Assembly (NCBI GenBank): GCA_014730255.1
Contig: WJIQ01000136.1
Coordinates: 1-64,000 of the forward strand
Direction of reading: 5' to 3'
Origin: a bacterium
GTDB taxonomy: Bacteria; Krumholzibacteriota; Krumholzibacteriia; LZORAL124-64-63
DNA length: 64,000 nt
Shown here one piece after another: positions 6,594 through 59,880 of this stretch. Numbering within the stretch: the stretch's first letter is position 1; each line of letters starts with the position of its first letter. Position numbers and translations under genes: made by a program. Below the pieces are notes generated by a model. It saw nothing but the letters and a program-made list of their open reading frames with translations. It had not been told where the DNA came from and ran no database searches.

Positions 6594-6691
6594 GGGCGTG
6601 GACTCCCGGATCGCGAGGCAGGGTGGCGGGACGAGCGCTTCGTCCCTGAACATACGTACCCATCCGTCAAAAGATCCAAGCGAATTCGGAT

Positions 6692-14368: not shown

Positions 14369-14373
14369 CGGTC

Positions 14374-14757
14374 CTATCCGGTTCGGGTGCGTTCGTCCAG
14401 CAGGTTGCGGAGGTGCTCGACCAGCCGCGCGATGGTGAAGGGCTTCCTCATGTAGAGATCGGCACCGGCCTCGTTCATGGCCTCGCGCACGGCCTGATCG
14501 GTGCGCGCGGACAGCGCGATGATCACGGTGTCGGCGAAGCTGCGGTTGCGGCGCAGCAGGCGCGTGGTCTGCACCCCGTCGAGCCGGGGCATCATGATGT
14601 CCATGATCACGACGTCGGGGCGGAAGGCGTGCACGCGGTTCATGGCGTCCATGCCGTCGGTCGCCACGGCGACCTCGTAGCCCTCGTCGCGCAGCGTGTG
14701 CTCCAGGAGCGTCGCCACGGGCGCCTCGTCGTCGACGATCAGGATGCGCTGGTTCAC
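14374..14757 (-). CDS. stand-alone response-regulator receiver (CheY-like)
   Basis: 127 aa, ILIVDDE...VVIMDIMMP...IIALSA...KPF; GTG start; 5 bp upstream of kinase start. Confidence 0.85.
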   Translation of the reverse strand: MNQRILIVDDEAPVATLLEHTLRDEGYEVAVATDGMDAMNRVHAFRPDVVIMDIMMPRLDGVQTTRLLRRNRSFADTVIIALSARTDQAVREAMNEAGADLYMRKPFTIARLVEHLRNLLDERTRTG

Positions 14758-14763
14758 GTCCCG

Positions 14764-18160: not shown

Positions 18161-18355
18161 CGTCACCGCCCCGTCCCGGAGTGCATAATGGCATGCATCG
18201 ACCGCTCTCGGCGGCCTGAGGCGGAGCCACGCAAGTGGCGTGCCATCACCGGGTACGGGCGGTCGCTCCAGCACCTTCCGTGCCACGGCGGGTGGTCGCG
18301 GGCGACCACGAAGCCGTCCGCGGGACCGCGATCAACGTCCGGGAATCCCGGGAGA

Positions 18356-36199: not shown

Positions 36200-38230
36200 T
36201 CAGCTGGCGAGGGAGGTCAGGAGCGAGGATCGCGCGGGCTCGCGCGAGAGGGCCTTGACGAAGATCTCGACCAGGTCCGGATCCAGAGAGCGGCCAGCCT
36301 CCTGCTGCAGGGCGGCGACCGCCTGGTCGGCGTCGTCCCGGTGCATGACCAGGGCGAAGTGCTGGGCGATGGCCACCAGCCGGGCGACCAGGGGGATGTC
36401 GCGGCCGGACATACCGAGCGGGAAGCCCCGTCCGTCGAACCGCTCGTGGTGATGCCGGACGGCGTCGCGGACCGCGCTGGGCGCATCGAGCTCGGCCATG
36501 CGCTGGTCGCCGACGTCCGGGTGCGCGCGGAACGCCTCCCAGACCTCGCCGGTCAGCTGGTCGCTGGCCAGATCGTCCACGTCGTTCTGGTCCTGCCCCA
36601 CGTTGCGGACCAGGGCGCCGAGGACGAGATCGCGTTCCTGATCGGGCGGCAGCCCCAGCTCGCGGGCCAGCAGCCGCACCGCGCGGGCGGTCTCCTGGGT
36701 GACCGCGTGCGCCTCGGTCTCGGCCTCGCCGACCAGGAGCGACTCGAGCAGGCCGAGGCTCATGTTCGCCCGCTGCTGCCCGTCCCGCAGGCGCAGCAAC
36801 GCCTCGGCGGTGATCTCGACCAGCTCGTGGATCTCCTCGCCGGGCTCGTTCGGCGGCCCGTGCCAGTCGAGCCCCAGGGCGACCACACCGAGCGTCTGCT
36901 CTTCCTGCCGCAGGACGGCGAGCCAGCCGAGCTCGCGTTCCAGCAGCTCGTCGCGGACCGCGGCGAAGCTCGCCGGCATGTTCTCGATCTCGACCGGACG
37001 CTCGAGGGTACGGAAGAACGTCTCGATGCGCTCTCCCGACAGATCGACCGGTTGATCGCTGCGCCGCGCGGCGCCGGCGGCGAACGCCGGCAGCCCTGAC
37101 GCGCCGGGATCGACGAACAGCAGGCTGGTGACCTCGGCCGCCGCGCGCAGGCGCGAGATGAAGACCTGCCAGAAATGGGGCAGGTCCTGCGCGTCCTGGA
37201 GCCCGCGCGCCAGCTCGAGCTTGACCGCGAGCAACGTCTCGCGGTCCCGGCTCACCGTCGCGGCGGCCTCGCGCGCCGCCGCATCGGCGGCGGCCACATC
37301 CTCGGCGTCGGGCACCTGATCCATCAGGCGCTGCAGCATCTCCAGCGCGAAGACCTCGGGCAGCAGGTAGTCGTGATCGTCGCCCGCACGCTTGAGGAAC
37401 ACGACGCCGGCCAGGTCCTCGTGGCGCAGGAGCGGCATCAGGAGATCCGGACGCAGGTCCTCCAGGAGCTGCGACTCCTCGTCCCAGAGCCGGCCGTTCT
37501 CGATGTCGAGCATCGTCAGGGGTCGGCGGATCTCAAGGAGCGTCTCGGCGATGCCGCCGCGCTGTGGCACCCGCCACGCCCCGTCCGGCGAGACGAAGTG
37601 CTCCCCTTCGGCCAGGCAGCAGATCGTCTCGCCAGCGAGGTCGTGCGCGTCGAGCATCACCCCGAGCGCCTCGCCGAAGGCGGCATGATTGCCGCCCTCG
37701 GCCACGGCGCTCAGGACGTCGTCGAGCGAGACGTAGACCGCGGTCACCAGGTCGGCGGTCCGTCGTTCCTTGTCCGAGGAGAGGTTGGCGTCGTCGACCT
37801 CGTAGTCGTCGAGGAGGTCGTCGAGCGCCGCCTCCCCGCCGGCGTGTTTCTTCGCGCTCGAGCCACCGGAGGCCCCGACCGCGCTCCCGAACACCACCCG
37901 GGCCTCGTTGAGTGAATCCAGGCAGCGTAGCGGCAGGTCGCCGAACTTCTGGGCCAGGAACCTCTGCATCACCGGTCCGACGCCGACGAAGACGACCTCG
38001 CCGCCGCGACCGGTCAGGTCCTTCTGCAGATCGGCCAGCACGCCGGCGCCGCGACCGCCCAGGCTGTCCAGATCGGAGCAGTCCAGCAGCAGTCGCAGCT
38101 TTTCGCGCTCGAGGCACTTCTTGGCGAGATCCAGCAGTTTCTGACGATCACCGCGGCCGAACGCCCCGTGCACCCGGATCCCGAAGACGTCCGTCCCCGG
38201 GAGCTCCAGCGGTTCGAAGCGGATGGGCAC
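36200..38230 (-). CDS. STAS domain - GAF - degenerate HD-GYP domain signalling protein
   Basis: 676 aa; N-terminal STAS-like (VHGAFGRGDRQKLLDLAKKCL...LLLDCSDLDSL); GAF regions; C-terminal HHHERFDGRGFPLG but LLHDIGK position reads LVRNVGQ and upstream His is Glu. Confidence 0.75.
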   Translation of the reverse strand: MPIRFEPLELPGTDVFGIRVHGAFGRGDRQKLLDLAKKCLEREKLRLLLDCSDLDSLGGRGAGVLADLQKDLTGRGGEVVFVGVGPVMQRFLAQKFGDLPLRCLDSLNEARVVFGSAVGASGGSSAKKHAGGEAALDDLLDDYEVDDANLSSDKERRTADLVTAVYVSLDDVLSAVAEGGNHAAFGEALGVMLDAHDLAGETICCLAEGEHFVSPDGAWRVPQRGGIAETLLEIRRPLTMLDIENGRLWDEESQLLEDLRPDLLMPLLRHEDLAGVVFLKRAGDDHDYLLPEVFALEMLQRLMDQVPDAEDVAAADAAAREAAATVSRDRETLLAVKLELARGLQDAQDLPHFWQVFISRLRAAAEVTSLLFVDPGASGLPAFAAGAARRSDQPVDLSGERIETFFRTLERPVEIENMPASFAAVRDELLERELGWLAVLRQEEQTLGVVALGLDWHGPPNEPGEEIHELVEITAEALLRLRDGQQRANMSLGLLESLLVGEAETEAHAVTQETARAVRLLARELGLPPDQERDLVLGALVRNVGQDQNDVDDLASDQLTGEVWEAFRAHPDVGDQRMAELDAPSAVRDAVRHHHERFDGRGFPLGMSGRDIPLVARLVAIAQHFALVMHRDDADQAVAALQQEAGRSLDPDLVEIFVKALSREPARSSLLTSLAS

Positions 38231-42316: not shown

Positions 42317-43192
42317 TCAGTCCCTGGCCCGGATGAAGTCGATGATGTCCTGGTCGAGGCTCGCCGACCCGTGCGCGGCGAGCACGTCGTGGCCGCCCTC
42401 GGGGAAGATCTGGAAGCGGCAGCGCGGGTGTCGGGCCCGCTTCTGAAGGATCCGCAGGGCCTCCGGCGAGACGCGGTCGTCGTCGTCGCACATGACGCCG
42501 AACATGGGCACGTCCACCCGCGGGATCAGATCCTGCGCCGCCTGCATGCCCTCCAGGACATCCACGCGCAACCCCATGCGGCGTCGGACCTGGGGCACGC
42601 GCAGCAGGCCGAGCGACCGCAGCAGCCGGATCTTCAGATCCACCCGCGGGACGATCGCCGGCGCGATCAGCACCAGCCCGGCGACGCGCTCGCGACTGGC
42701 AAGGTGCAGCGCCAGCGCCGCGCCGAACCCGCTGCCCAGCACGTAGACGTCCCGGCAGGAATCGGCGAGCAGCCGGTGCCCGTGCCTGACCTGCTGCAGC
42801 GTCGCCCGCCAGCGGGCCTCCGGACCGCCCGTGACGCCGTGACCGTAGTCGGCGAGCAGCAGCCCGTGGACCGTCAGCCCCGCCTCGTGCATCACGCGCG
42901 CCAGCGGCACCATGTGCGCCGGCGTCTGATCGGTGCCGTGGACGAGCAGGACGCCGGGCTGGCCCTCCTGCCCGACCTTCAGGAAGGTGCGCTTGTGCTT
43001 GGCGACGCCAAGCTCGGCCTCGGCCAGCGTGCGCAGGCGCTCGTGCGTCCTGAGGGTCATGATCCGCGCGCGCGGATCGGCGTGCTCGTGGAACTGGTTG
43101 CGGGCGAGGTCCCAGGCCGTCAGCGACATGGCCTGGACGCGGGCTCGGCGTTGCTCGTTGCGGGGCGGGCTGGCCTGCGGTTGGCTGCTCAT
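42317..43192 (-). CDS. alpha/beta-fold hydrolase (esterase/lipase-like)
   Basis: Start MSSQPQ (AGAGGA RBS) within ORF 42317..43216; nucleophile elbow LGSGFG, LLVHGTD oxyanion region, catalytic His near C-terminus (GGHDV). Confidence 0.75.
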   Translation of the reverse strand: MSSQPQASPPRNEQRRARVQAMSLTAWDLARNQFHEHADPRARIMTLRTHERLRTLAEAELGVAKHKRTFLKVGQEGQPGVLLVHGTDQTPAHMVPLARVMHEAGLTVHGLLLADYGHGVTGGPEARWRATLQQVRHGHRLLADSCRDVYVLGSGFGAALALHLASRERVAGLVLIAPAIVPRVDLKIRLLRSLGLLRVPQVRRRMGLRVDVLEGMQAAQDLIPRVDVPMFGVMCDDDDRVSPEALRILQKRARHPRCRFQIFPEGGHDVLAAHGSASLDQDIIDFIRARD

Positions 43193-43199
43193 GATCCTC

Positions 43200-43985
43200 T
43201 CAGAGCTGGTCGGCACGCGCGATCACGCGATCGGGACGCTGATCGACCGGCAGTTCGTCCAGGACGCTGGCGTCGGGGTACTTGCCGCTGAGCACGAGGA
43301 CGGTGGCCATGCCCAGGCGCCGGGCGCCGGCGAGGTCGGTGAAGGGGTCATCGCTGATAAATAGCGCCTCGGCCGCGGATCCGCCAAGGGAATCGAGGGC
43401 GGCCCGATAGACCGCGGGTTCGGGCTTGCCCGCCGTGACGACCGGCGCGCCCGGCACCGCCGTGGTCAGCGCGGCGGCCAAGGAGCCGGGACCGAGCCGC
43501 GCCCGGCCCGCCTCGTCGAGCCAGAAACGGTTGCGGTGCAGGCACATCAGCGCGGCGCCACGCTTCAGCCAGCGCAGGGCCCGGTCGAGGTCGCCGAGCT
43601 CCAGGTCCGGGCCCACGCCGAGGACGACCGCGTCGCAATCGGGGGCGTCGGGCGCGACCGGACGGAGCCCCTGGTCGCCCAGCCACCCGACGAGGCCGCC
43701 GTGGCCGAGCCAGCCGATGTCGCGCCAGCCACGCTCCCGCAGCATCGCCGCCCCGGTCCCGAGGGCGCCGACGAGATGCTCGGCCGAGACGGCGAACCCG
43801 GCCCGCGCCAGCGCCGCGACCAGGTCGTCCGGCGTGTGGGTGGTGTTGTTGCTGACCAGGCGCCAGCGGATCCCTCGCGCGTCGAGATCCCTCAGCCACG
43901 CGACCGCGCCGGGCACCGGCTCGTAGCGCTTGTCGACCACCAGCACGCCCTCGATGTCGATGAGGTAGATGGAACGCCCGGTCAT
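43200..43985 (-). CDS. HAD-superfamily subfamily IIA hydrolase (NagD-like sugar phosphatase family)
   Basis: 261 aa; YLIDIEGVL (DxE/DG), VSNNTT, GKP, ISDD motifs. Confidence 0.8.
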   Translation of the reverse strand: MTGRSIYLIDIEGVLVVDKRYEPVPGAVAWLRDLDARGIRWRLVSNNTTHTPDDLVAALARAGFAVSAEHLVGALGTGAAMLRERGWRDIGWLGHGGLVGWLGDQGLRPVAPDAPDCDAVVLGVGPDLELGDLDRALRWLKRGAALMCLHRNRFWLDEAGRARLGPGSLAAALTTAVPGAPVVTAGKPEPAVYRAALDSLGGSAAEALFISDDPFTDLAGARRLGMATVLVLSGKYPDASVLDELPVDQRPDRVIARADQL

Positions 43986-45154
43986 GGCCGGCTCCTGGTC
44001 GGGGCGGCCGCGACCGTCGCCAGCAGATCGTCGTACCGCGGAGCGAGGCGCGGCCAGCAGAAAGGATCGACGTCACGCGCGAGCGAGCAGACGTGGCCGG
44101 CCTCATCGCCGGTGACGAGTGCGGCGAGCAGGTCGACGAGGTCGGCGGTCGTCTCCCAGAAGTGCGGCCCGCGGCACAGCGGCCCGTAGAGATGCGGATA
44201 GACCTGCCGGCGCGGCAGCACCGGATAGCAGCCGGCGTGGATGGCCTCGGCGACCGCGATGCCGAAGTACTCCTGCTCGGCGCAGCTGACGACGATGTCG
44301 GCGCGGTCGAGCCAGCGATCGTAGTCGGCACGGGACGCCGCGAAGCCCGCGTGCAGGCACCGCTCGCCGAGCCTCGCGACCAGGGGGGCGAAGACGTCGC
44401 GGTGGTGACGGTCGTCGCCCAGCAGGACCACGTCGAGGTCCAGACCGCGGTCCAGCAGCGCGCCGATGGCCGTGGCGAACTGGTCGGGCCGCTTGTCGAA
44501 CTCCCAGCGGTGGTTCCAGAGGATCAGGGGTCGCTCCCCGCGCGGCCACGTCGGTCCGGCGTCCGGATCGCAGGGGCTGCCGCGCCAGACCGGTTCGGCC
44601 GGCGGGGCGTGCGGGTGCCGCGCCAGGCCGACCGGCAGGACGTCGCACTTCGGGGCCAGGCGGTCGCGCATGCGCGGCAGCACGGCCTCGGGCATGCGGC
44701 CGAGGTATTCCGGCAGCGCGTCCAGGAACAGGTCGCGGTGGTACGCGGAATTGAAGACGACCCGGTCGGCCGCCAGGCAGCTGGCGATGTTCGTGTATCC
44801 GAAATGGAAGTCGAATTCCTCGTGCGGCGACAGCGGATAGGTGAGCTGGTTCTCGTGCATGTAGAGCACCAGCGGCTCGCGGTCCAGCGGGGGCGGCAAC
44901 AGGCCGCGCAATCCCGCGAGGTCGAGCAGGCTGGTGGCGACGATCAGGTCGCAGGGCTCGGCGTGACCGGCGAGCTGGTCGGCGAACCAGGCCGCCCCGC
45001 CGCGCATGCGCCACTTCCAGAACCGTGGCGGCAGGGTGAACGACCGGATGCGGTGTCGCGTGTGGCGCGCCAGCCCCTCCCGGAAGGCGCGGTGCGAACC
45101 ACCGTCGAAGGACTCGATGAAGACGATGTCGAGCGTCGCGGCGGGGCCTGTCAT
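43982..45154 (-). CDS. DUF3524 + GT1 glycosyltransferase, homolog of eukaryotic GTDC1/QTMAN (queuosine-tRNA mannosyltransferase)
   Basis: 390-aa C-terminal part of ORF 43982..48850 (start MTGPAATLDIVFIESFDGGSH); blocks IESFDGGSH, MHENQLTYP, FDFHFGYTNIASCLAADRVVFNS, APKCDVLP, WNHRWEFDKRPDQF, EYFGIAVAEAIHAGCYPVLP match human GTDC1 as recalled; ATGA overlap with downstream HAD-IIA. Confidence 0.7.
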   Translation of the reverse strand: MTGPAATLDIVFIESFDGGSHRAFREGLARHTRHRIRSFTLPPRFWKWRMRGGAAWFADQLAGHAEPCDLIVATSLLDLAGLRGLLPPPLDREPLVLYMHENQLTYPLSPHEEFDFHFGYTNIASCLAADRVVFNSAYHRDLFLDALPEYLGRMPEAVLPRMRDRLAPKCDVLPVGLARHPHAPPAEPVWRGSPCDPDAGPTWPRGERPLILWNHRWEFDKRPDQFATAIGALLDRGLDLDVVLLGDDRHHRDVFAPLVARLGERCLHAGFAASRADYDRWLDRADIVVSCAEQEYFGIAVAEAIHAGCYPVLPRRQVYPHLYGPLCRGPHFWETTADLVDLLAALVTGDEAGHVCSLARDVDPFCWPRLAPRYDDLLATVAAAPTRSRP

Positions 45155-45277
45155 GGGGCTCGCTCTCGGTGCGGCGCGATGCGCGGTCGGGGTGCAGGGA
45201 CCATCGACGGTCGCTCCCAGTCTACCGCTCGCCCCCGCCACCGGCGACCGTGAATTCCGGGGGCATTGCCTCGCCCA

Positions 45278-45306
45278 TCCGATTACGTTATAATCACGTA
45301 ATCTGA
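45278..45306 (+). promoter_or_regulatory. palindromic operator centred on a TATAAT box upstream of the S8/beta-helix peptidase gene
   Basis: GATTACGT-TATAATC-ACGTAATC: perfect 8-bp inverted repeats flanking a -10-like hexamer, in a local AT-rich island 60 bp upstream of ATG 45368. Confidence 0.5.
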
Positions 45307-45367
45307 TTTTTGCTAAGCGCGGCCGACCGGGCCGCTCCACGTCGTGCCACCTGGCCGGAGGCTGCTC

Positions 45368-48300
45368 ATGAAGAACGTCGTCCTCGTCTGCCTCGCCGCG
45401 CTGCTGACCCTCGCGTCGGCCGCCTCGGCGCTCGAATTCGAAAACTCCAGCGTGGTCGGACACGTGCAGGACCGCGTCCTCGTGGTCCTCGAACCCGGCC
45501 TGAAGCTGGCCGTCGACAAGGCGTCCGGGACTCCCGAGACCGGCCGCGCCGATCTCGATGCCCTGAGCGCGCGGTACGACGCGGTCGACATCAGTCCCCT
45601 GTACGGCAACATGGCCGCGATGTTCGACAAGGCGTCCACGCGCGTGGAGATGGAGCGGTGGTACGCGGTCGACTTCGCCCGCGACGTCGACCTCGAGCAG
45701 GTGATCGTCGACTACGGCAAGCTGGCCGGCGTGACCGAGGTGCGCGCCATCGAGATCTGCAAGAACTACGGGACGGCCTACTTCCCCGACGACCTGACCA
45801 ACCAGTGGTACCTGCGCAACCCGTCGCTCGGCGGCGGCGACGTGCGCGCCCTCGGCGGCTGGGCCGAGGCGGCCGGCGACAGCAACGTGATCATCGCCGT
45901 GGCCGACTCGGGCGTCGACTGGAATCACCCCGATCTCGGCGGACCGCACCCCGATCGCGTCAACGGCGCGATCTGGACCAACTGGGACGAGTACTACGGC
46001 ACCCCGGGCGTCGACGACGACGCCAACGGGTACATCGACGACATCCGCGGCTGGGACTGGGTGACCGGCGTCAACGGCGAGGGCGATCAGGACGATCAGA
46101 TCCCGGACAACGATCCCAGCGACTTCGAGAGCCACGGCACCAACTGCGCCGGCACCATCTCCCCGCTGACCGACAACGGGATCGGCGTGGCGGCGACCGC
46201 GCGCGGCTGCAAGATGATGGCCCTGCGCATCGGCTACCTGCCCGCGGGCGCGGACATCGGCGTCGTGCGCATGGACTGGGCCTCGCAGGCGTTCTTCTAT
46301 GCCGCGGCCAACGGCGCGAAGATCTTCAATGCCTCCTGGGGCAGCTCGAGCCTCCTGAGCTTCGGCGTGCGCGAGTTCCTCGACTCCGGCGGTCTGATCT
46401 TCACCGCCGCGGGCAACGACGACAGCCAGGACGCCTCCTACCTGAACGGCTACCCGGACGGCACCGGCTCGGAGACGCGGATCCTCGGCGTCGCTGCCAC
46501 CGGGACCGGCGACGGCAAGGCCAGCTTCTCCAATTACGGCGAGTGGGTCGACCTCTGCGCCCCCGGCACCAACATCTACACCACCGCCTACTCGAGCAAC
46601 ACCGGCGAGAGCACGTACTCGGCGGTCCAGGGCACGAGCTTCGCCTCGCCGCTGGCCGCCGGCTGCGCGGCGCTCATCTGGTCGGCCAACCCCGGTCTCA
46701 CGGCGGCCCAGGTCTCGCAGACCCTGCGCTTCAGCTGCGACGACATCGACGACGTGAACCCCGCCTACGCGGGTCTCCTGGGCCACGGCCGCATCAACCT
46801 GACCCGCGCCCTCGGCGACAGCGAGCAGCTGGTGCCGCAGGAGTACGCCGACATCCGTGACGCCATGAGCTGCGCCTCGCCCGGCGACATGATCAAGGTG
46901 CTCGGCTCGGCCACCCTGCCCAACATCACGATCATCGGTCGCGAGCTCGAGGTCAGCGGCGGCTGGGACGCGAGCTACACCACCCGTGACGTCGAGAACA
47001 ACCCGACGGTCATCGACGCCAACGCCGCCGGCCCCGCGCTCGAGTTCTTCGGCGACGTGACGGCCTCGACGGTGGTCGACGGCTTCGCGCTCGAGGGCGG
47101 TGGCGGCCGCACCTTCAGCGACATCCCCTACCCCGGCCGGTACGGCGGTGGCGTGCTCGTCTCGGGCCAGTCGCCGACCTTGCGCAACCTGACCATCACC
47201 GGCGCGGCGGTCGGCTCGTCCAGCCAGCTCGGCTGCGGCGGCGGCATCATGCTGCACGACAGCGAGTCGGTGCTCGAGGACATCACGATCACCGGCAACA
47301 CGGCGACGCTCGGCGCCGGCGTGTTCGTCTACCAGGGCAGCCCGGCCCTGACCCGCGTCGTGATCGATGCCAACACCCTGATCACCGACGACTTCGCCAA
47401 CGAGGCGCTCGGCGGTGGCCTGCACGTCCTCGACGCGGACGTGACGCTGACCGACGTGACGGTCACCAACCATCTCGACGCCATTCGCGGTGGCGGCATC
47501 TACGCGGCCCAGATCACCGACCCCGCGTCGGTGACCATGACCGGTGGCGAGGTCAGCGGCAACACGGCGAAGTCCAGCGGCGGTGGCGTCTATGCCGCCG
47601 GCGCCGGTCTGCTCGACCTGACCGACGTCGCGATCGCGGGCAACGGCCCCGGCACCGGGGCGACGTTCATGTCCGGCGGCGGCGTCTACGTCACTGGCCC
47701 GACCGTGGTCATGAGCGGCGTCTCCATCCAGGACAACACCGCCCAGGCCGGCGGCGGCATGCAGCTCGACCAGAGCCCCGCCATCGACCTGTCGGCCACG
47801 CTCCTGACCGGCAACGAGTCGCTGATCTTCGGCGGCACCATCTACCTGACGAGCAACGCGGGCGCGACGATGACCAACCTCACCATCGCCGACAACGCGA
47901 GCACGGGCGGCGGTGCGGGCATCAACTCCAGCGGGACGCCCCTGGACGTCGCCAACACCATCGTGGCCTTCAACACCGGCGGGACGACCATCGCCAACGG
48001 CATCAACATCACCGGTGCGTCGGCGATCCTCGCCTGCAACGACGTCTTCGGCAACGATGGCGCCGACTACGGCGGCGTCGACGATCCCACCGGCACCGAC
48101 GGCAACATCTCGGTCGACCCGCTGTTCTGCGACGTGGCCGAGGGCGACTACCGCGTGGCCGAGGACGGCCCCTGCGCCCCCGACCAGAGCGGTGGCTGCG
48201 GCCTGATCGGCGCCCTGGAGGCCGCTTGCGGCACCAGCACGCCGGTCGAGGATCCGCAGGTGCCGGCCGCGTTCGCCGTCGAGCCCAACTTCCCCAACCC

Positions 48301-48544
48301 GTTCAATCCGGTCACCACGATCCGCTTCGCCATCCCGACCGCCGCCCGCACCACCGTCACGGTGTTCGACGTGCGCGGCCGCGTGGTGAAGACCCTCGTG
48401 GACGCCGAGCTGCCCGCCGCCACCCACGCGATCCAGTGGCGCGGCCAGGACGATCGCGGACGCGCGGCCTCCGCCGGCATCTACTTCTACAAGGTGACCA
48501 GCGGCGAGCACACCGCGGTCGGGCGCATGGCGCTCATCAAGTAG
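45368..48544 (+). CDS. secreted S8 subtilisin-like peptidase with right-handed beta-helix region and C-terminal FlgD-Ig/T9SS-type sorting domain
   Basis: Start MKNVVLVCLAALLTLASAASA (GGAGG RBS); catalytic VADSGVD / HGTNCAG / GTSFASPLAAG; long G/T/N-rich parallel-beta-helix-like repeats; C-terminus FPNPFNPVTTIRFAIP...VFDVRGRVVKTLVD...GIYFYKV...MALIK. Confidence 0.9.
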   Translation: MKNVVLVCLAALLTLASAASALEFENSSVVGHVQDRVLVVLEPGLKLAVDKASGTPETGRADLDALSARYDAVDISPLYGNMAAMFDKASTRVEMERWYAVDFARDVDLEQVIVDYGKLAGVTEVRAIEICKNYGTAYFPDDLTNQWYLRNPSLGGGDVRALGGWAEAAGDSNVIIAVADSGVDWNHPDLGGPHPDRVNGAIWTNWDEYYGTPGVDDDANGYIDDIRGWDWVTGVNGEGDQDDQIPDNDPSDFESHGTNCAGTISPLTDNGIGVAATARGCKMMALRIGYLPAGADIGVVRMDWASQAFFYAAANGAKIFNASWGSSSLLSFGVREFLDSGGLIFTAAGNDDSQDASYLNGYPDGTGSETRILGVAATGTGDGKASFSNYGEWVDLCAPGTNIYTTAYSSNTGESTYSAVQGTSFASPLAAGCAALIWSANPGLTAAQVSQTLRFSCDDIDDVNPAYAGLLGHGRINLTRALGDSEQLVPQEYADIRDAMSCASPGDMIKVLGSATLPNITIIGRELEVSGGWDASYTTRDVENNPTVIDANAAGPALEFFGDVTASTVVDGFALEGGGGRTFSDIPYPGRYGGGVLVSGQSPTLRNLTITGAAVGSSSQLGCGGGIMLHDSESVLEDITITGNTATLGAGVFVYQGSPALTRVVIDANTLITDDFANEALGGGLHVLDADVTLTDVTVTNHLDAIRGGGIYAAQITDPASVTMTGGEVSGNTAKSSGGGVYAAGAGLLDLTDVAIAGNGPGTGATFMSGGGVYVTGPTVVMSGVSIQDNTAQAGGGMQLDQSPAIDLSATLLTGNESLIFGGTIYLTSNAGATMTNLTIADNASTGGGAGINSSGTPLDVANTIVAFNTGGTTIANGINITGASAILACNDVFGNDGADYGGVDDPTGTDGNISVDPLFCDVAEGDYRVAEDGPCAPDQSGGCGLIGALEAACGTSTPVEDPQVPAAFAVEPNFPNPFNPVTTIRFAIPTAARTTVTVFDVRGRVVKTLVDAELPAATHAIQWRGQDDRGRAASAGIYFYKVTSGEHTAVGRMALIK

Positions 48545-48728
48545 TAGCGGCGGGGTCAGGGACGGACATGCGGGGGCCGCCCGCCGGGTACATCGTGGGG
48601 AGACCGGACCACCACGAGACGGCCGGAATCTGCTATCATCAAGGGGGGCCGGAACTGGGCCATACGATGTCACCGCGCGCCACCAACGGTTGCCGCCCCC
48701 TGGCCGCGAGGTGCCCTGGAGATCCACG

Positions 48729-50072
48729 ATGCCGACCCACCGACCTTCGCGATCCGCCCGTCCACTCGCCCGCCGTGCCGCGCTCGCCGTGAGCTGCCTC
48801 GCGCTGGCCGTCCTCGGCGCGTCGGCCGGCGCGGACACGATCGAGACCATCAGCTTCGAGAGCCGTTCGCTGGACGAGGTACGCTGGATCCAGGTGGTCC
48901 TGCCGGACGGCTACGATCCAGAGCGACCCGGCGGCTACCCGGTCTACTACTTCCTGCACGGCGCGGGGTCGGATCACACGTCCTACGGCATCGTGCGGGA
49001 CGTCCTGAACGGCGAGATCGCGACCGGTCACGTGGAGCCGGCCATCCTGGTCAAGCCGGACGACAGCGGCTGCCCCTGGGGGCAGTTCACCGGGTGCAAC
49101 TGGACCAACTCGCCGGACCTGCAGGGAATGCACGAGGACTATGTCGTCGAGGACGTGATCACCGAGATCGAGAGCCGCTACCACACCGCGCCGGGTGCCG
49201 CCGGCCGGGTGATCCTGGGCCACTCGATGGGCGGCTTCGGGGCGATGCACATCGCCCTGCGCCATCCGGACGTCTTCGCCGGCGTGGCCTCGCACAGCGG
49301 CTACCTGTCCTTCGCCGGGCTCGCGGAGCTGCACGTGCCCCGCATCATCGCCGAGCACGGCGGTAGCGGCCCCTGGCAGTGGACGCCGGACGCGGGGATG
49401 ATCAGCGCGCTGTGGTTCCTGATGGCCGGGGCCTTCTCGCCCGATCCGAATGCGTCCCCGTTGCCGGTCGATTTCCCGCTCTCGCCGGCCGGGACCGTCC
49501 GCCCCTTCGTCTTCGCGCGCTGGTTCGATCACGATCCGGTCACCCTGGCGCAGGCCCTCTCGCCGCAGGATGCACCGGCGATCTACTTCGATTGCGGAAC
49601 CAGCGACGAGTTCGATTTCCACCCGCTGAACGAGGCCTTCGCGGTGGCCCTGGACGACCGGGAGATCCCCCACACCTGGCGATCCTTCGACGGCGCCCAC
49701 GGCGACCGGCTGGCGGAGCGCCTGGTGACGTCGCTACGGTTCCTGGACACGGCCATGCTCCACGAGGCGGTCGCCAGTCCGGAGCCCGTGGCTCCATCGA
49801 CGCTCACCCTCCAGGCGGCGCCGAGCCCGTTCAATCCGCGGACGACCATCCGGTTCGAGATGCCCGTCGCCGGACATGCCGGGATCGTCGTCTACGATCT
49901 GCGGGGTTCGCCGGTCGAGGTCCTCGTGGATGACGTGATGCCGCCGGGACCACACGCGGTGGACTGGGACGGCACCGACACGAACGGACGTGCGGTTCCG
50001 TCGGGGCACTACCTCGTGCGGCTCGAGACCGCGGACGGGATGGCCATGAGGAAGGTGGCCCTGATCCGCTGA
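48729..50072 (+). CDS. secreted esterase (putative esterase / enterochelin-esterase-like alpha/beta hydrolase) with C-terminal FlgD-Ig/T9SS-type sorting domain
   Basis: Start MPTHRPSRSARPLARRAALAVSCLALAVLGASAGA; GHSMGG nucleophile elbow; C-terminus APSPFNPRTTIRFEMPVAGHAGIVVYDLRGSPVEVLVD...HYLVRL...VALIR. Confidence 0.8.
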   Translation: MPTHRPSRSARPLARRAALAVSCLALAVLGASAGADTIETISFESRSLDEVRWIQVVLPDGYDPERPGGYPVYYFLHGAGSDHTSYGIVRDVLNGEIATGHVEPAILVKPDDSGCPWGQFTGCNWTNSPDLQGMHEDYVVEDVITEIESRYHTAPGAAGRVILGHSMGGFGAMHIALRHPDVFAGVASHSGYLSFAGLAELHVPRIIAEHGGSGPWQWTPDAGMISALWFLMAGAFSPDPNASPLPVDFPLSPAGTVRPFVFARWFDHDPVTLAQALSPQDAPAIYFDCGTSDEFDFHPLNEAFAVALDDREIPHTWRSFDGAHGDRLAERLVTSLRFLDTAMLHEAVASPEPVAPSTLTLQAAPSPFNPRTTIRFEMPVAGHAGIVVYDLRGSPVEVLVDDVMPPGPHAVDWDGTDTNGRAVPSGHYLVRLETADGMAMRKVALIR

Positions 50073-50103: not shown

Positions 50104-53100
50104 TCACTTGACGAGGGTCATCCGCCCCATCTCCACGACGCCCCCCGCCACCAGCCGGTAGACGTACGTCCCCGACGGCAGCGAGCGCCCGCGCCCGTCG
50201 ACCCCGTCGAAGGCGACGCGGTGATGGCCCGCGTCCAGCGCTCCGTCGACCAGCGTGCGCACGAGCCGTCCGCGCACGTCATGGACGGTCAGGCGAGCGT
50301 GACCGGCGCGCGGCAGGCTGAAGGCCAGCGTCGTGCGCGGGTTGAACGGGTTCGGCGACGCCGCGGCCAGCGTGACCACCCCGGGCACGTCCGCCTCGCT
50401 CGCGGTGTCGACCAGCAGGCTGACCGGCACCACCACGGGCGCGCCGCCACTGGAGTAGACCACGATCTCGGCGGTGTAGGTGCCCGTCCCGAGCCCGGTC
50501 GCATCGAACGCGACCGTGACCTCGCTGGTCTCGCCGGCCGGCGTCTGGCCGGCCTCCAAGGCGAGGTCCAGCCACCCGATGTCGGCCTGGATCGTGAACG
50601 CGCCGTCGCTGACGTCGCTCACCAGCACGTCCTGGGCGTCGACCACCCGGACGCGGCACTGATCGCTGGCCGGCCCGGTGACCTCCCAGGCGAAGCTGCC
50701 GAGCGCGGCGTCGAGGTCGCTGGCCACCGTCTGCCAGCCGTCGCCGCGGTCGAGCTGCAGATCGATCCCGGTCACGCCGCCGTCAGCCGTCCAGAGGAAG
50801 GTGCGCGGCTCGCCGATGGACCAGACCTCGCCACCATTGGGTGCGACCACGGTGACGGTGCGATCGCGGTCGAGGCCGCCATCGGCCGACTTGCCCGGGC
50901 GGGATTCGCGCACCGCGAGCTGCCAGTGCAGTTCGGAGCCCGCCGCGCCCGTGCTGCTGATCGCGAGCACGCGCTCGGTCGACGCGCCCGGTGCGACCGT
51001 CACCGCCAGGCTGCCCGGCGAGACGTCGAGGCTCGCGGCCGCTGCCGGCGGCGTCGGCACGAAGGCGATCGCCCGGCCCGCCGTCAGCGTGCGCGCCCCA
51101 CTGGCGTAGCGGTTGTAGTAGGTGTAGGTCAGACCGTCCTGACCGTCCTGGATGCCGACCGTGGCGTAGCCGCGGGTGTAGTCGTTGTTGGCGACCTGGT
51201 CGTACTGGTAGACGATCAGGCCGTCGCCCGTCGCGGTCTGGTGCACGGCGGGATCGTGCAGGATCAGCTGGCAGTTCTGCTGGCCGTTGTGCCGGTTACG
51301 CATGCGGCTCCACTGCACGACGTACACGCCGTCCTCGACGTCGTGATGATGATAGACGCGGCCGCTGCCGTACTGCCACAGATCGTCCCAGAACACGGCC
51401 AGCAGCACGTCCGGCGAGCCGGCCGCCGGCAGGGCCCAGTTGCGCCAGTGCACGAGGTAGGTGTGCCCGAGCGAGACCCAGCCGTTGGAGCAGATCGAGA
51501 TGCGGTCGTAGTCGCGGCCGCGGTAGCGGAAGGTGAACGGCAGGTCCACCGTGCGCGTGTCGTCCTCCTCGTAGGCATAGTCGTCGAGGCCGACGCTGGT
51601 CCCCGGTCCACCGTGGGAGGGGTCGATCTCGCGCCAGGCGTAGACCGGCGCGTCGGGCGAGGGGTCCTGGTCGTCCCAGGCCAGGTAGCCCATGGTGCCC
51701 GGACCGAGGGGGCTGTCGTCGTTCGCGCCGGCGGTGGTCAGGCTCAGCTCCAGGACCTGCCGGGTGCCGTTCGCCGTGGTGACGGTCACGGTGCAGGCGG
51801 CGAGGTGGCCGCCCCACGCGGCCTCGGCCACGGCCAGGGGCCACGATGCCGAGGCGAGCGCGCCCGGCGCCACGTCGCCGAGATCGACCGTCACCGGCCC
51901 GGCCGGCAGCAGGAACGGGCTGGTGCTCGCGAACTCGGCCACCGCGCCGACCGCGCCGCTCGAGCCGTCGTTGCGCAGCTGCACCGCGAGATCGACCGTC
52001 TGTCCGGCCTGACCCGACCAGGCGCTCGAGACGAGCCGGAACGCCGGCGCCGCGATGGGCAGGCGCGCCTGCGAGGTCCACGCGCCGTCGCCCCCCTGGG
52101 CGATCACGTCGAGACGGACGTCGCGGCCGTCGGGCAGGTCGCCCGGCAGGGTCAGCGTCCAGGCCGCCGCGGTCACGGTCGCGCCGGGGCCGATGGTCCC
52201 GACCGCGACGGGCGCGCCGGCGACCGCGACACCGTCGGTGCGCGCAGCGACGTCCACGGTCACCCCGGCCACCGCCGTCTCGCCCAGGTTGGTGATCTGC
52301 AGCGAGAGCTCGCCGCTCTCGCCCGGGTCGGGCATGCCGTCCTGGCCGTCGCTCCAGAGCCAACCGCTCGCCGTGCAGTAGGCATCGACCGCGCCGACCT
52401 GCAGCTCGCCGCGGTGAGGCATGAGGTCATCGCCGGTCACGGTGATCGCCAGCGGACCGGGCGCGAGGTCGGTCGGTACGGACAGGCGGACCTGACCGGC
52501 CTGGTCGGTCCAGCCGGTCGTCTGCACCATGCCCTCGCGCCACACGGTGACCCGGGTGTCCGCGAGGGGCGATCCGCTCCGGCGGACGCTCACCGGCACC
52601 GTGTCCGCACCGGGCGGCAGCAGGGCCGGATAGTCGACGCTCGGCGCGACGGGCAGGGCCTGGCGCATCTCCGTCGCCGGATCGCCCATCAGGTTGTTCC
52701 AGGTCGACCAGATGGCGACGATGTCCGGCTCCGGCTCCTGGTACTGGCGGTACAGCTCGATCTTGCCGCGCGTGTGGGCATAGCCGAGGGTGCGGTCCGG
52801 CTCGTTCAGCGCACCCTCCCAGGCGCCGTGGAAGTAGCAGTTGTTGTAGCGCGTGTGCGTGCCGATGGTCGCGGTGCCGACCGCTCCGATGGCGCCGCCG
52901 TCCGGGTTGCGCAGCATGGCCTCGCTGTAGGTGTGCGGGCTCTCGAAGCTGCCCGAGGCGCAGGTGGGCATGATGGCGAACGGCAGCTCGCCCTGGTTGC
53001 TCAGGTTGTCGATGTACGTGGTGCTGAAGCCGCTGCAGCCGAGGTAGCCGCGGTAGGCGTAGACCGAGGCGCCGGCGTTCAGCTTCTCGAAGATCCGGCT

Positions 53101-54096
53101 CGCGAACGGTGCGCTCCAGATGGTGTCGACCTGGGTGTACGCGAGATCGAGCAGCTGCTGCTTGAGCCACTGGTTGACGTAGATCGTGGTGTCGCCGGAC
53201 GACGAGGGATCGCCGACGAGCACCCCGCGCGTGAACCAGCCGGGGTCGCCGAACGTGTCGGGCGCACGCTCGTAGCCGAGGATCTTGGCCACGATGCCCT
53301 CCAGCTCGCCGATCGAGCGGGCGCTGAGGCGTCCGATGTGCACGTCCGAGAGCACGTCGTCGCCGTCGAGCCGGGTGTACTCGTGGTCGCCCTCGCCGTA
53401 GTAGCCGGAGATGGACTCGCGCCAGGTGGCCACGCTCACCCCGCCGGTGGCGTCACCGACGAGGACGACGTGCGCGAGCGGCGCCTCGGCCGTGTCGTAG
53501 ACCTGCTGGATGTGGCTCTTGATCTGCGTGTTGGTGCCGCCGATCGCGGCCGTGGAGACCACCTCGACGGCGTAGCCCTGCCGGCGGCGCCACTCGGCCA
53601 GGGGCGCGATCGCCTCCTGCGTGCCCGCGGCCGAGGAGCAGATCATCAGGTACGTGCCGGGAACCTCGTCGTACTCCGCGCGGACGGCCGCGCCGCCGAG
53701 GGCCACGCTCGCGAGCATGTTGCCGAACGAGCGGGCGATGGTCGTCCGCGCCGGCGGCGCGGTGGCGGCCGGCGTGAAGGCCAGGTCGACCGTGCGCGCG
53801 GCGGGGCCATCACCATCGATGGTGACCGGCGCGACCTGCATCCCGTGCATGATCGCGGGCTCGCCCAGGGCGACGCCCGATGCCTCGCCGGCCAGATGCG
53901 CGGACATGCCCGGCGGGATCGCGACCAGCCCCTGCCACGAGGCGCCGTCTCCGGGCATGGTGACGTCGAGGCGCACGCCGACGTCGGTCCCGGTGGCCAC
54001 CGCCGGTTGCGGCGCCCGCGCGAGCGAGGTCACGGGGACGGTGGCGAGAACGGCGAGCAGGGTGGCGAGGAGCGGGAGCGGGGCACGGCGGCGCAT
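50104..54096 (-). CDS. secreted gingipain-like cysteine peptidase (C25 family) with Ig-like domains and C-terminal FlgD-Ig/T9SS-type sorting domain
   Basis: Start MRRRAPLPLLATLLAVLATVPVTSLA (AGGAGG RBS) within ORF 50104..54177; C25 catalytic region HVVLVGDATGGVS...YRGYLGCSGF...MPTCASGSFESPH; C-terminus SPNPFNPRTTLAFSLPRAGHARLTVHDVRGRLVRTLVD...GTYVYRL...MTLVK. Confidence 0.85.
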   Translation of the reverse strand: MRRRAPLPLLATLLAVLATVPVTSLARAPQPAVATGTDVGVRLDVTMPGDGASWQGLVAIPPGMSAHLAGEASGVALGEPAIMHGMQVAPVTIDGDGPAARTVDLAFTPAATAPPARTTIARSFGNMLASVALGGAAVRAEYDEVPGTYLMICSSAAGTQEAIAPLAEWRRRQGYAVEVVSTAAIGGTNTQIKSHIQQVYDTAEAPLAHVVLVGDATGGVSVATWRESISGYYGEGDHEYTRLDGDDVLSDVHIGRLSARSIGELEGIVAKILGYERAPDTFGDPGWFTRGVLVGDPSSSGDTTIYVNQWLKQQLLDLAYTQVDTIWSAPFASRIFEKLNAGASVYAYRGYLGCSGFSTTYIDNLSNQGELPFAIMPTCASGSFESPHTYSEAMLRNPDGGAIGAVGTATIGTHTRYNNCYFHGAWEGALNEPDRTLGYAHTRGKIELYRQYQEPEPDIVAIWSTWNNLMGDPATEMRQALPVAPSVDYPALLPPGADTVPVSVRRSGSPLADTRVTVWREGMVQTTGWTDQAGQVRLSVPTDLAPGPLAITVTGDDLMPHRGELQVGAVDAYCTASGWLWSDGQDGMPDPGESGELSLQITNLGETAVAGVTVDVAARTDGVAVAGAPVAVGTIGPGATVTAAAWTLTLPGDLPDGRDVRLDVIAQGGDGAWTSQARLPIAAPAFRLVSSAWSGQAGQTVDLAVQLRNDGSSGAVGAVAEFASTSPFLLPAGPVTVDLGDVAPGALASASWPLAVAEAAWGGHLAACTVTVTTANGTRQVLELSLTTAGANDDSPLGPGTMGYLAWDDQDPSPDAPVYAWREIDPSHGGPGTSVGLDDYAYEEDDTRTVDLPFTFRYRGRDYDRISICSNGWVSLGHTYLVHWRNWALPAAGSPDVLLAVFWDDLWQYGSGRVYHHHDVEDGVYVVQWSRMRNRHNGQQNCQLILHDPAVHQTATGDGLIVYQYDQVANNDYTRGYATVGIQDGQDGLTYTYYNRYASGARTLTAGRAIAFVPTPPAAAASLDVSPGSLAVTVAPGASTERVLAISSTGAAGSELHWQLAVRESRPGKSADGGLDRDRTVTVVAPNGGEVWSIGEPRTFLWTADGGVTGIDLQLDRGDGWQTVASDLDAALGSFAWEVTGPASDQCRVRVVDAQDVLVSDVSDGAFTIQADIGWLDLALEAGQTPAGETSEVTVAFDATGLGTGTYTAEIVVYSSGGAPVVVPVSLLVDTASEADVPGVVTLAAASPNPFNPRTTLAFSLPRAGHARLTVHDVRGRLVRTLVDGALDAGHHRVAFDGVDGRGRSLPSGTYVYRLVAGGVVEMGRMTLVK

Positions 54097-54235
54097 GGAT
54101 TCCTCCTGGCGGGGTGTGGCGGTGTGTAAGGGTTCATTGTACCGCATCATGGGCTGGGACAGGAGATGAAGTTCCACGCGAAGAGCCCGCCGGCCTTCTG
54201 GCCGGCGGGCTAGCGTCGACGGCCCCGGCCGGCCG

Positions 54236-59366: not shown

Positions 59367-59484
59367 CGGCTCGACGAACGGCCGGCCCCGCCCGGGCCGG
59401 CCGCCGTCGGCACGGCGCCCGGTCTGGCGACCGGCGACCGCCGCGTGTAGCATGGACCGCCACACGCGCACGAAAGGACCCGCG

Positions 59485-59880
59485 ATGCCCAGCCAGCCCA
59501 GCCGCGAGCTCGAGACCTTCGAGAACCCATCGCCCGACCGGGACTACGAGATCGCCTTCGACTGCCCCGAGTTCACCTGTCTGTGCCCGCTGACCGGCCA
59601 GCCCGACTTCGCGCACTTCCACATCACCTACGTCCCGGACCGGCAGTGCGTGGAGCTGAAGTCGCTCAAGCTGTACCTCTGGAGCTACCGCGACCAGGGC
59701 GCCTTCCACGAGAAGGTCACCAACCAGATCCTGGACGATCTGGTGGCGGCCACGCGGCCGCGCATGATGGAGGTGCGTGGGGAGTGGTTCGTGCGCGGCG
59801 GCATCACCACCGAGGTGCGGTGCACCTACATCGACCCCGCCTGGGGCCGTGATCGCGACGGGTCCGGCAGCGTGTCCTGA
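59485..59880 (+). CDS. queF: NADPH-dependent 7-cyano-7-deazaguanine (preQ0) reductase, type I
   Basis: Start [15 protein letters not shown] (AAAGGA RBS) within ORF 59452..59880; catalytic CPEFTCLCP cysteine and QueF motif [12 protein letters not shown]. Confidence 0.85.

What the first reader, a model, noticed from the sequence alone, without database searches (positions are those of the whole stretch)
42317..45154. Bacterial homolog of the eukaryotic queuosine-tRNA mannosyltransferase GTDC1/QTMAN in an operon with a HAD-IIA hydrolase and an alpha/beta hydrolase
The 390-aa protein (43982..45154) shows block-by-block similarity to human GTDC1 (DUF3524 + GT1) as I recall it. The blocks are IESFDGGSH vs IEAFYGGSH, MHENQLTYP vs FHENQLIYP, FDFHFGYTNIASCLAADRVVFNS vs FQYGYNQILSCLVADVVVFNS, APKCDVLP vs RPKCQVIY, WNHRWEFDKRPDQF vs WPHRWEHDKDPESF, and EYFGIAVAEAIHAGCYPVLP vs EFFGVAMLEAVYCGCYP. 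GTDC1 was reported as the enzyme that mannosylates queuosine in animal tRNA, and glycosylated queuosine has not to my knowledge been described in bacteria. The same window carries queF and queG, so the organism makes queuosine, and it also carries other tRNA-modification genes (tilS, tsaD). The gene is coupled by ATGA overlaps to a HAD-IIA (NagD-like sugar phosphatase family) gene and an alpha/beta hydrolase. Together these could form a small sugar-handling/transfer module of unknown substrate.
Basis: partly seen in the sequence, partly recalled or inferred. Interest (0 to 1): 0.75.

Follow-up and report, generated by a model that had tools for sequence, protein, structure and literature searches.

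The report
Bacterial relative of queuosine-tRNA mannosyltransferase
This bacterium carries a full-length relative of the animal enzyme that attaches mannose to the tRNA base queuosine; the family occurs in hundreds of bacterial species, which suggests (not shown) that sugar-decorated queuosine may also exist in bacteria.

Summary
Window 43982..45154 (-) encodes a 390-aa protein with a full-length QTMAN_N domain (PF12038, E=1.9e-60) and a GT1/GT4 C-domain. It aligns collinearly with primate GTDC1/QTMAN (36% N-domain, 33% C-domain). All 21 residues invariant among bacterial homologues are also invariant in vertebrate QTMANs. The AlphaFold model (pLDDT 89) is a GT-B fold closest to retaining GT4 enzymes.

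This is not a new discovery. The identical protein is in NCBI as "DUF3524 domain-containing protein". At least 596 species genomes across about ten phyla carry a relative, and NCBI already names one homologue after QTMAN.

The operon with the HAD-IIA phosphatase and the alpha/beta-fold protein exists only in Krumholzibacteriota-type genomes (8 and 9 of 9 loci). None of 74 loci from other phyla has it. The alpha/beta protein has lost its catalytic serine. queF and queG are real but lie 14-17 kb away.

The most likely function is glycosylation of queuosine-34 in tRNA. I put this at about 0.5. It rests on the conserved acceptor domain, not on any assay. I found no paper on bacterial homologues or bacterial glycosyl-queuosine. 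Interest is moderate: an open question that could be tested directly.

The parts
43982..45154 (-). QTMAN/GTDC1-family glycosyltransferase, 390 aa. N-terminal QTMAN_N domain (residues ~10-177), poorly predicted linker (187-197), GT4-type C-domain with R216/K221 and an EX7E motif at E295..E303.
43982..43985 (-). ATGA overlap: the GT stop codon overlaps the HAD start codon (translational coupling).
   Evidence: The same 4-8 nt overlap occurs in L001-L003.
43200..43985 (-). HAD-IIA family phosphatase, 261 aa. Motif I reads D-I-E-G. Nearest solved relatives are HDHD2, Pho2 pNPPase, LHPP and chronophin.
42317..43192 (-). Alpha/beta-fold protein, 291 aa from ATG 43192 (alternative GTG start at 43216). 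The nucleophile elbow reads G-S-G-F-G, with Gly where the catalytic Ser should be. It is probably non-catalytic.
45155..45343 (.). Divergent intergenic region between the GT gene and the S8 peptidase gene. It is AT-rich, has a sigma-70-like promoter match (45266..45294, + strand) and a perfect 21-nt palindrome at 45282..45302.
59452..59880 (+). Context only: queF (preQ1 synthase). It shows that the host makes queuosine precursors. It lies 3.5-6 kb from the GT gene in six relatives and 14 kb away here.
61643..62767 (-). Context only: queG (tRNA epoxyqueuosine(34) reductase). It shows that the host completes queuosine on tRNA.

Best explanation
The gene encodes a soluble retaining GT-B (GT4-type) glycosyltransferase that is a true bacterial member of the QTMAN/GTDC1 family. 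This part is shown. The inferred function is as follows. Like the animal enzyme, it takes a nucleotide sugar in its C-terminal domain, using R216/K221 and the E295-x7-E303 motif. It transfers the sugar onto the cyclopentenediol of queuosine-34 in a tRNA (probably tRNA-Asp) held by the family-specific N-terminal domain, via the GGSH, WKWRxR, HENQLxYP and FNS motifs. The result would be a glycosyl-queuosine in a bacterium that makes its own queuosine (queF and queG are present). The identity of the sugar and the target tRNA are not known. The translationally coupled HAD-IIA phosphatase and the serine-less alpha/beta-fold protein are accessories specific to Krumholzibacteriota. Their role is unknown and they are not part of the family's core function.
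For: PF12038 matches over its full length at E=1.9e-60. The protein aligns collinearly with primate QTMAN in both domains, 36% and 33% identity. All 21 columns invariant in 40 bacterial sequences stay invariant when 4 vertebrate QTMANs and one eukaryote-like sequence are added, and ten of them lie in the acceptor-side N-domain. Human-to-bacterial identity (median 31.6%) falls inside the bacterial-to-bacterial range (27.5-63%, median 36%). Only 6 positions differ systematically between bacteria and eukaryotes. From general knowledge of GT-B enzymes, the N-domain is the acceptor-binding domain and usually diverges when the acceptor changes. The model is confident (pLDDT 89.3, pTM 0.90) and its best structural matches are retaining GT4 enzymes, which fits an alpha-linked product. 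The host has QueF and QueG above NCBIfam equivalog cut-offs. In six Krumholzibacteriota-type relatives queG and queF sit 3.5-9 kb upstream of the GT gene. Outside that phylum the gene stands alone, as many tRNA-modification genes do: 133 immediate neighbours fall into 121 Pfam families, only 2 are glycosyltransferases, and 33 of 74 loci look monocistronic. In one independent lineage (three Marispirochaeta-type spirochaetes) an NSUN4-like RNA m5C methyltransferase gene overlaps or abuts the GT gene.
Against: No assay exists. To my knowledge, and in the literature I could search, glycosyl-queuosine has never been reported from a bacterium. No queuosine gene lies next to the GT gene in 74 loci from other phyla. 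The queF/queG proximity is a single conserved-synteny event that also spans unrelated genes. The protein is not basic (pI 6.0; family median 6.3). The tight coupling to a HAD phosphatase, and one GT-HAD fusion (P0121), resemble small-molecule sugar-phosphate pathways. I could not test whether all carrier genomes have tgt.
Confidence: 0.5

Rival explanations
1. Small-molecule pathway. The transferase glycosylates a phosphorylated small acceptor and the coupled HAD-IIA phosphatase removes the phosphate, as in sucrose-phosphate synthase/phosphatase or MshA plus its phosphatase. On this view the animal tRNA function is a later re-use of the scaffold.
For: The GT and HAD genes overlap by ATGA in the window and in L001-L003. 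HAD follows the GT gene in 8 of 9 Krumholzibacteriota-type loci. One database protein (P0121) is a GT-HAD fusion. The best structural neighbours are small-molecule GT4 enzymes: GlgM, MshA, BshA, TreT and sucrose-phosphate synthase.
Against: The HAD is absent from all 74 loci of other phyla and from the close relative L004, so it is not part of the family's core function. The structural hits share only 12-16% identity, and no RNA-acting GT4 structure is available for comparison. Full conservation of the acceptor-side motifs between bacteria and vertebrates argues for a shared acceptor. The P0121 fusion could be a frameshift at the ATGA overlap.
Confidence: 0.2
2. Another macromolecular or nucleoside acceptor. 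The enzyme glycosylates something other than tRNA Q34, for example another RNA such as rRNA, free queuosine or its 5'-phosphate (with the NagD-family HAD acting as nucleotidase), 7-deazaguanine in DNA, or a protein.
For: The family-specific N-domain implies a specific but unidentified acceptor. The spirochaete partner is most similar to NSUN4, an rRNA methyltransferase. HAD-IIA enzymes include nucleotidases such as NagD. Five orthologues of the neighbouring alpha/beta protein carry Arg/Gly-rich basic tails.
Against: No full-length family member was found in 2.9 million viral contigs, where 7-deazaguanine DNA systems are common. No DNA-modification or defence genes are enriched nearby. Nothing positively points to any of these acceptors, and the only characterised member acts on tRNA Q34.
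Confidence: 0.15
3. An ordinary cell-envelope or exopolysaccharide glycosyltransferase, as the JGI label 'glycosyltransferase involved in cell wall biosynthesis' suggests.
For: It has a generic GT1/GT4 C-domain. The JGI automatic names say so.
Against: Only 2 of 133 immediate neighbours in other phyla are glycosyltransferases. No polysaccharide-cluster genes are enriched and the context varies completely between lineages. The N-domain is the QTMAN-specific PF12038, not the usual Glyco_transf_4. The JGI label is a generic COG-style name.
Confidence: 0.07

Closest known systems
Vertebrate tRNA-queuosine alpha-mannosyltransferase QTMAN (GTDC1; EC 2.4.1.110; Zhao et al., Cell 2023, cited from PMC11755703; the paper itself was not readable here)
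   Same: Same two-domain architecture (PF12038 plus GT1). 31-36% identity in both domains. All 21 family-invariant residues are shared, including the GGSH, WxWR, HENQ, FNS, HRWExDK and EX7E motifs.
   Different: The bacterial protein lacks the poorly conserved inter-domain insert of about 85-100 aa found in the primate protein. Six positions differ systematically between bacteria and eukaryotes: D69/R, P94/K, H139/N, G176/P, N214/P and L313/C. The host makes queuosine de novo instead of salvaging queuine. Donor sugar, target tRNA and activity are untested.
Retaining GT4 glycosyltransferases of small-molecule pathways (MshA, BshA, GlgM, TreT, sucrose-phosphate synthase)
   Same: GT-B fold with Foldseek E of 1e-10 to 1e-13 and TM about 0.6-0.7. 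The C-domain phosphate-binding Arg/Lys and the EX7E motif are present. Coupling to a HAD phosphatase recalls SPS/SPP.
   Different: Only 12-16% identity. The N-domain belongs to a different Pfam family. The HAD coupling is restricted to one phylum.
GluQRS (YadB), the known bacterial enzyme that further modifies Q34 of tRNA-Asp (own knowledge)
   Same: It would play the same kind of role: a stand-alone enzyme decorating the cyclopentenediol of queuosine on tRNA.
   Different: Unrelated fold and chemistry (an aminoacyl-tRNA-synthetase paralogue that adds glutamate). I did not test whether carrier genomes have or lack GluQRS.

Membership tests
QTMAN/GTDC1 family (PF12038 + GT4) | N-terminal QTMAN_N (former DUF3524) domain above the Pfam gathering score | tested here: met
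   203.9 bits against a cut-off of 25, profile positions 2-168 of 168
QTMAN/GTDC1 family (PF12038 + GT4) | C-terminal GT1/GT4 nucleotide-sugar domain with an EX7E motif and an Arg/Lys phosphate-binding pair | tested here: met
   PF00534 scores 31.1 bits against a cut-off of 26.4. E295-x7-E303 is present, and R216, K221 and E303 are invariant.
QTMAN/GTDC1 family (PF12038 + GT4) | Collinear similarity to the experimentally characterised animal enzyme across both domains | tested here: met
   BLASTP against primate GTDC1 (P0270): N-domain 36%, E=2e-30; C-domain 33%, E=4e-27
QTMAN/GTDC1 family (PF12038 + GT4) | Family-invariant residues retained | tested here: met
   21 of 21 invariant columns are shared by bacteria and vertebrates
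QTMAN/GTDC1 family (PF12038 + GT4) | GT-B fold | tested here: met
   AlphaFold2 pLDDT 89.3, pTM 0.90. Foldseek best hits are GT4 GT-B enzymes.
QTMAN/GTDC1 family (PF12038 + GT4) | Substrate present: the host puts queuosine on tRNA | tested here: met
   QueF (TIGR03139, 178.5 bits against 86.9) and QueG (TIGR00276, 232.3 bits against 200) are in the same window. tgt and queA are not in the window.
QTMAN/GTDC1 family (PF12038 + GT4) | Catalytic activity: GDP-mannose-dependent mannosylation of Q34 in tRNA-Asp | not testable with these tools
   Needs an enzyme assay or LC-MS of tRNA nucleosides
QTMAN/GTDC1 family (PF12038 + GT4) | Carriers restricted to genomes with tgt/queuosine | not tested
   Only 20-kb loci could be fetched. 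The 80 named carriers include no Actinobacteria, Archaea or Mollicutes, which is weak and biased towards close relatives.
HAD-IIA phosphatases | Subfamily model above cut-off and the four HAD motifs | tested here: inconclusive
   TIGR01460 scores 106.1 bits against 100.15. The nucleophile Asp, the motif III Lys (GKP) and the motif IV SDD are conserved. The general acid position D+2 is Glu (D-I-E-G) in all 9 orthologues.
Alpha/beta serine hydrolases (monoacylglycerol-lipase-like, PF12146) | Nucleophile Ser in a G-x-S-x-G elbow | tested here: not met
   G-S-G-F-G aligns with G-L-S-M-G of Bacillus monoacylglycerol lipase, which puts Gly at the Ser position. Nine of 10 orthologues have Gly. The fold itself is met: PF12146 scores 52.8 bits against 27.
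GT4 + HAD sugar-phosphate synthase/phosphatase pairs | GT-phosphatase linkage conserved wherever the GT occurs | tested here: not met
   HAD is adjacent in 8 of 9 Krumholzibacteriota-type loci and in 0 of 74 other loci

The most novel reading that the evidence does not exclude
Bacteria of at least ten phyla glycosylate queuosine-34 of their own tRNA with this enzyme. Glycosyl-queuosine would then be an ancient bacterial invention rather than an animal one, and animal QTMAN would descend from the bacterial family. In Krumholzibacteriota the coupled HAD phosphatase and serine-less alpha/beta-fold protein (with Arg/Gly-rich tails in relatives) would act as accessory factors. They might yield a queuosine derivative different from mannosyl-queuosine.
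Probability: 0.45. Interest if true: 0.8.

Novelty: new member of a known kind. Interest (0 to 1): 0.55.

Why it matters
Mannosyl- and galactosyl-queuosine are treated as animal-specific decorations of a base that animals obtain from bacteria. A well-conserved bacterial QTMAN family in queuosine-making organisms makes two questions directly testable. Do bacteria have glycosylated tRNA nucleosides? Where did the animal enzyme come from? The bacterial proteins are compact and lack the eukaryotic insert, so they would also be convenient for structural work on how a glycosyltransferase recognises a tRNA anticodon loop; no QTMAN structure is in the PDB copy searched. Against this, the homology is already captured in Pfam and NCBI annotation, so the value lies in the experiment, not in the detection.

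Tried and rejected
1. Literature. Eight full-text searches (QTMAN, GTDC1, DUF3524, manQ, glycosylated queuosine, enzyme names, GDP-mannose plus queuosine) found no work on bacterial homologues. The Cell 2023 paper is not held, so I cannot say whether it mentions bacteria.

2. Solved structures. There is no sequence hit for the GT in the PDB. The AFDB library was unavailable.

3. Conserved neighbours across 74 loci from other phyla. Blast clustering and a Pfam scan of 133 immediate neighbours found no conserved partner.

4. Queuosine genes near the GT. tblastn of the window QueF and QueG against all loci hit only Krumholzibacteriota-type loci. There was no positive control, so this is weak.

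5. Phage origin or DNA modification. The viral contig scan gave only generic GT1 C-domain matches.

6. Informative domain fusions. The longer family members (P0243, P0209) have N-terminal extensions with no Pfam match. P0264 is a eukaryote-like sequence with an insert. Cluster look-ups gave no names.

7. Basic charge as an RNA-binding hint. The pI is 6.0, which is uninformative.

8. The radical SAM gene next to queG. It is an AmmeMemoRadiSam enzyme, not QueE.

9. The palindrome upstream of the GT gene. It is not conserved in relatives.
Full report
What is there. The window has about 72% G+C and many spurious ORFs. Third-position GC was used to pick the real genes. Three consecutive minus-strand genes fill the flagged interval:
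- a 390-aa glycosyltransferase (GT) at 43982..45154;
- a 261-aa HAD protein at 43200..43985;
- an alpha/beta-fold protein at 42317..43192, with an alternative GTG start at 43216.

The GT stop and the HAD start overlap as ATGA. The HAD stop is followed by GAGGATC and then ATG, so the second junction is close but is not an ATGA overlap. Upstream of the GT gene, a secreted S8 peptidase with a T9SS-type tail is transcribed divergently.

Checking the homology claim. The GT matches Pfam QTMAN_N (PF12038, formerly DUF3524) over the whole model at E=1.9e-60, and it matches Glycos_transf_1. I retrieved a primate GTDC1 from the protein database (P0270) by querying with a sequence recalled from memory. 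The database returned a full-length match that is 96% identical to proteins named Macaca tRNA-queuosine alpha-mannosyltransferase. BLASTP of the window protein against P0270 gives two collinear segments: 36% identity over 166 aa (E=2e-30) for the N-domain and 33% over 189 aa (E=4e-27) for the C-domain. The primate protein also carries an inter-domain insert of roughly 85-100 residues that the bacterial protein lacks.

In an alignment of 40 diverse bacterial representatives, 21 columns are invariant. All 21 remain invariant after adding four vertebrate QTMANs and one eukaryote-like sequence. Ten of them lie in the N-terminal domain: S20, H21, W46, R49, H100, E101, Q103, P107, N135 and S136. Human-to-bacterial identity has a median of 31.6%, which lies inside the bacterial-to-bacterial range (27.5-63%, median 36%). 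Only six positions separate bacteria from eukaryotes systematically.

The AlphaFold2 model is confident (pLDDT 89.3, pTM 0.90), apart from the linker at residues 187-197. Its best structural matches are retaining GT4 enzymes with the GT-B fold: GlgM, MshA, BshA, TreT, sucrose-phosphate synthase and SenB, all at 12-16% identity. No QTMAN structure exists in the PDB copy, by sequence or by fold. The GT4 catalytic signature is present: R216, K221 and E295-x7-E303. Membership of the QTMAN family is therefore established as far as sequence and predicted fold can establish it.

How new is it? The identical protein is already in NCBI as "DUF3524 domain-containing protein [bacterium]" on a 77.9-kb contig. 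The closest named relatives are Candidatus Krumholzibacteriia. A full HMMER scan of 1.84 billion cluster representatives found 852 clusters (at 50% identity) with E<1e-30. These include Krumholzibacteriota, Planctomycetota, Chloroflexota, Desulfobacterota, Spirochaetota, Bacteroidota (Rhodothermales and Saprospiraceae), Verrucomicrobiota, Myxococcota, KSB1 and TA06, plus cultured Desulfosarcina alkanivorans and Ca. Marispirochaeta associata. One Anaerolineae homologue is already named [quoted passage not shown] by NCBI. The homology is thus already captured in public annotation. What I could not find is any study of the bacterial proteins, or of glycosylated queuosine in bacteria. The paper that identified QTMAN is not in the library.

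The operon. Public gene calls for three relatives show the same order, GT-HAD-alpha/beta, with 4-8 nt overlaps. tblastn of the window proteins against 83 loci gave these counts:
- The HAD follows the GT in 8 of 9 Krumholzibacteriota-type loci. It is missing in L004, where the alpha/beta gene follows the GT directly.
- The alpha/beta gene is present in 9 of 9 of those loci.
- Neither gene is present in any of 74 loci from other phyla.

One database protein (P0121) is a GT-HAD fusion. Given the ATGA overlap, this could also be a frameshift artefact. The HAD passes the HAD-IIA model. Its nearest solved relatives are HDHD2, Pho2 p-nitrophenylphosphatase, LHPP and chronophin. In all nine orthologues motif I reads D-[IV]-E-G, with Glu at the general-acid position.

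The alpha/beta protein aligns to Bacillus monoacylglycerol lipase with G-S-G-F-G opposite the lipase's G-L-S-M-G, so Gly replaces the catalytic Ser. Nine of ten orthologues have Gly, while the Asp and His positions are kept. It is probably not a hydrolase. In five relatives it carries an Arg/Gly/Ser-rich basic N-terminal tail of 80-123 residues. This includes a locus with 49% G+C, where such an open frame is unlikely to arise by chance. The window copy has no such tail.

Context with queuosine genes. queF (TIGR03139) and queG (TIGR00276) are real, so the host completes queuosine on tRNA. They lie 14-17 kb from the GT gene. An esterase gene, two very large ORFs that I did not annotate, and sigma and anti-sigma factor genes lie in between. 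In six relatives the queG-radical SAM-queF block lies only 3.5-9 kb upstream of the GT, separated from it by the S8 peptidase gene. The radical SAM gene is an AmmeMemoRadiSam enzyme, not QueE. This is one conserved-synteny event within a block that also holds unrelated genes (FtsH, FolP, CdaA, TilS), so I count it as weak to moderate support. By my rough estimate, a random gene has a chance of a few per cent of having any queuosine gene within 10 kb.

Outside this phylum the gene has no conserved partner. The 133 immediate neighbours fall into 121 Pfam families, and only two are glycosyltransferases. Putative operon partners number 88 genes in 70 clusters, and 33 of 74 loci look monocistronic. 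This pattern fits a stand-alone housekeeping enzyme better than a polysaccharide or defence-system component. One independent hint of an RNA context exists. In three Marispirochaeta-type spirochaetes, an NSUN4-like RNA m5C methyltransferase gene abuts or overlaps the 3' end of the GT gene, with gaps of +2, -9 and -18 nt. No full-length family member was found in 2.9 million viral contigs.

Interpretation. That the protein is a QTMAN-family retaining glycosyltransferase is shown. That it glycosylates queuosine-34 of tRNA is inferred. The main basis is that the family-specific N-terminal domain, which binds the acceptor in GT-B enzymes, is as well conserved between bacteria and vertebrates as the nucleotide-sugar domain, with no invariant residue lost. 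Support comes from the presence of the substrate pathway, the stand-alone gene context and two lineage-specific links, to que genes and to an RNA methyltransferase. I put this at about 0.5.

The main rival (about 0.2) takes the HAD coupling at face value: a small phosphorylated acceptor followed by dephosphorylation, as in sucrose-phosphate or mycothiol synthesis. It is weakened because the HAD is confined to one phylum and is dispensable in L004. Other acceptors (another RNA, free queuosine nucleotides, DNA, protein) remain possible (about 0.15). An envelope-polysaccharide role is unlikely (about 0.07). The sugar donor, the target tRNA and the roles of the HAD and the serine-less alpha/beta protein are unknown.

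Verdict. The object is a new, uncharacterised member of a known and already annotated family, not a new kind of system. Its interest lies in a concrete and inexpensive experiment: express the gene in E. coli, or analyse tRNA from Desulfosarcina alkanivorans, and look for glycosyl-queuosine. That experiment could show that a modification thought to be animal-specific is bacterial in origin.

Noticed in passing
window 42317..43192 (-); orthologues in L001-L009: The alpha/beta-fold protein has Gly at the catalytic-serine position (G-S-G-F-G against G-L-S-M-G of monoacylglycerol lipase) in 9 of 10 orthologues, while the Asp and His positions are conserved. It is probably a pseudo-hydrolase.
   Followed up: yes
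L003:12039-12407, L005:11919-12236, L006:11978-12292, L007:12042-12365, L009:7472-7711: Orthologues of the alpha/beta protein in five relatives carry Arg/Gly/Ser-rich, strongly basic N-terminal tails of 80-123 aa (RGG-like). These are present even in a locus with 49% G+C and absent from the window copy. They may bind nucleic acid.
   Followed up: partly
window 43200..43985 (-): HAD motif I reads D-I-E-G, with Glu instead of Asp at the general acid/base position. The motif is D-[IV]-E-G in all nine orthologues. The closest solved relatives are HDHD2, LHPP and pNPPase.
   Followed up: partly
L017:11088-11897, L049:11101-11889, L081:11104-11883: In three Marispirochaeta-type spirochaetes, a short NSUN4-like RNA m5C methyltransferase gene abuts or overlaps the 3' end of the QTMAN-family gene (gaps +2, -9 and -18 nt).
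   Followed up: partly
window 45282..45302: A perfect 21-nt palindrome, ATTACGTTATAATCACGTAAT, lies in the AT-rich divergent promoter region between the GT and S8 peptidase genes and overlaps a sigma-70-like -10 box. It occurs once in the window (0 in 100 shuffles) and is absent from all fetched relatives.
   Followed up: partly
window 60633..62767 (-): queG overlaps by 4 nt an AmmeMemoRadiSam-system radical SAM gene (TIGR04337, 328 bits). The pairing is conserved in six relatives. No AmmeMemo partner genes were looked for.
   Followed up: no
window 1203..4535, 4599..6695, 45344..48544, 48690..50072: Several secreted hydrolases (two S8 subtilases, an M1 peptidase and an esterase) carry C-terminal FlgD_ig/Por_Secre_tail sorting domains. 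This fits a T9SS-bearing organism related to the FCB group.
   Followed up: no
window 11321..14932, 14764..17157, 36200..38230 (-): Three large signalling proteins with HD-GYP-type HD_5 domains, fused to histidine-kinase, GAF or STAS modules, plus a response-regulator-GGDEF protein at 17171..18166. Together they form a dense cyclic-di-GMP signalling neighbourhood.
   Followed up: no
window 50104..54177 and 54236..57142 (-): Two very large ORFs (1357 and 968 aa) lie between the GT cluster and queF. They are absent from that interval in relatives L002 and L003, look like an insertion into the ancestral queF-S8-GT arrangement, and were not annotated.
   Followed up: no
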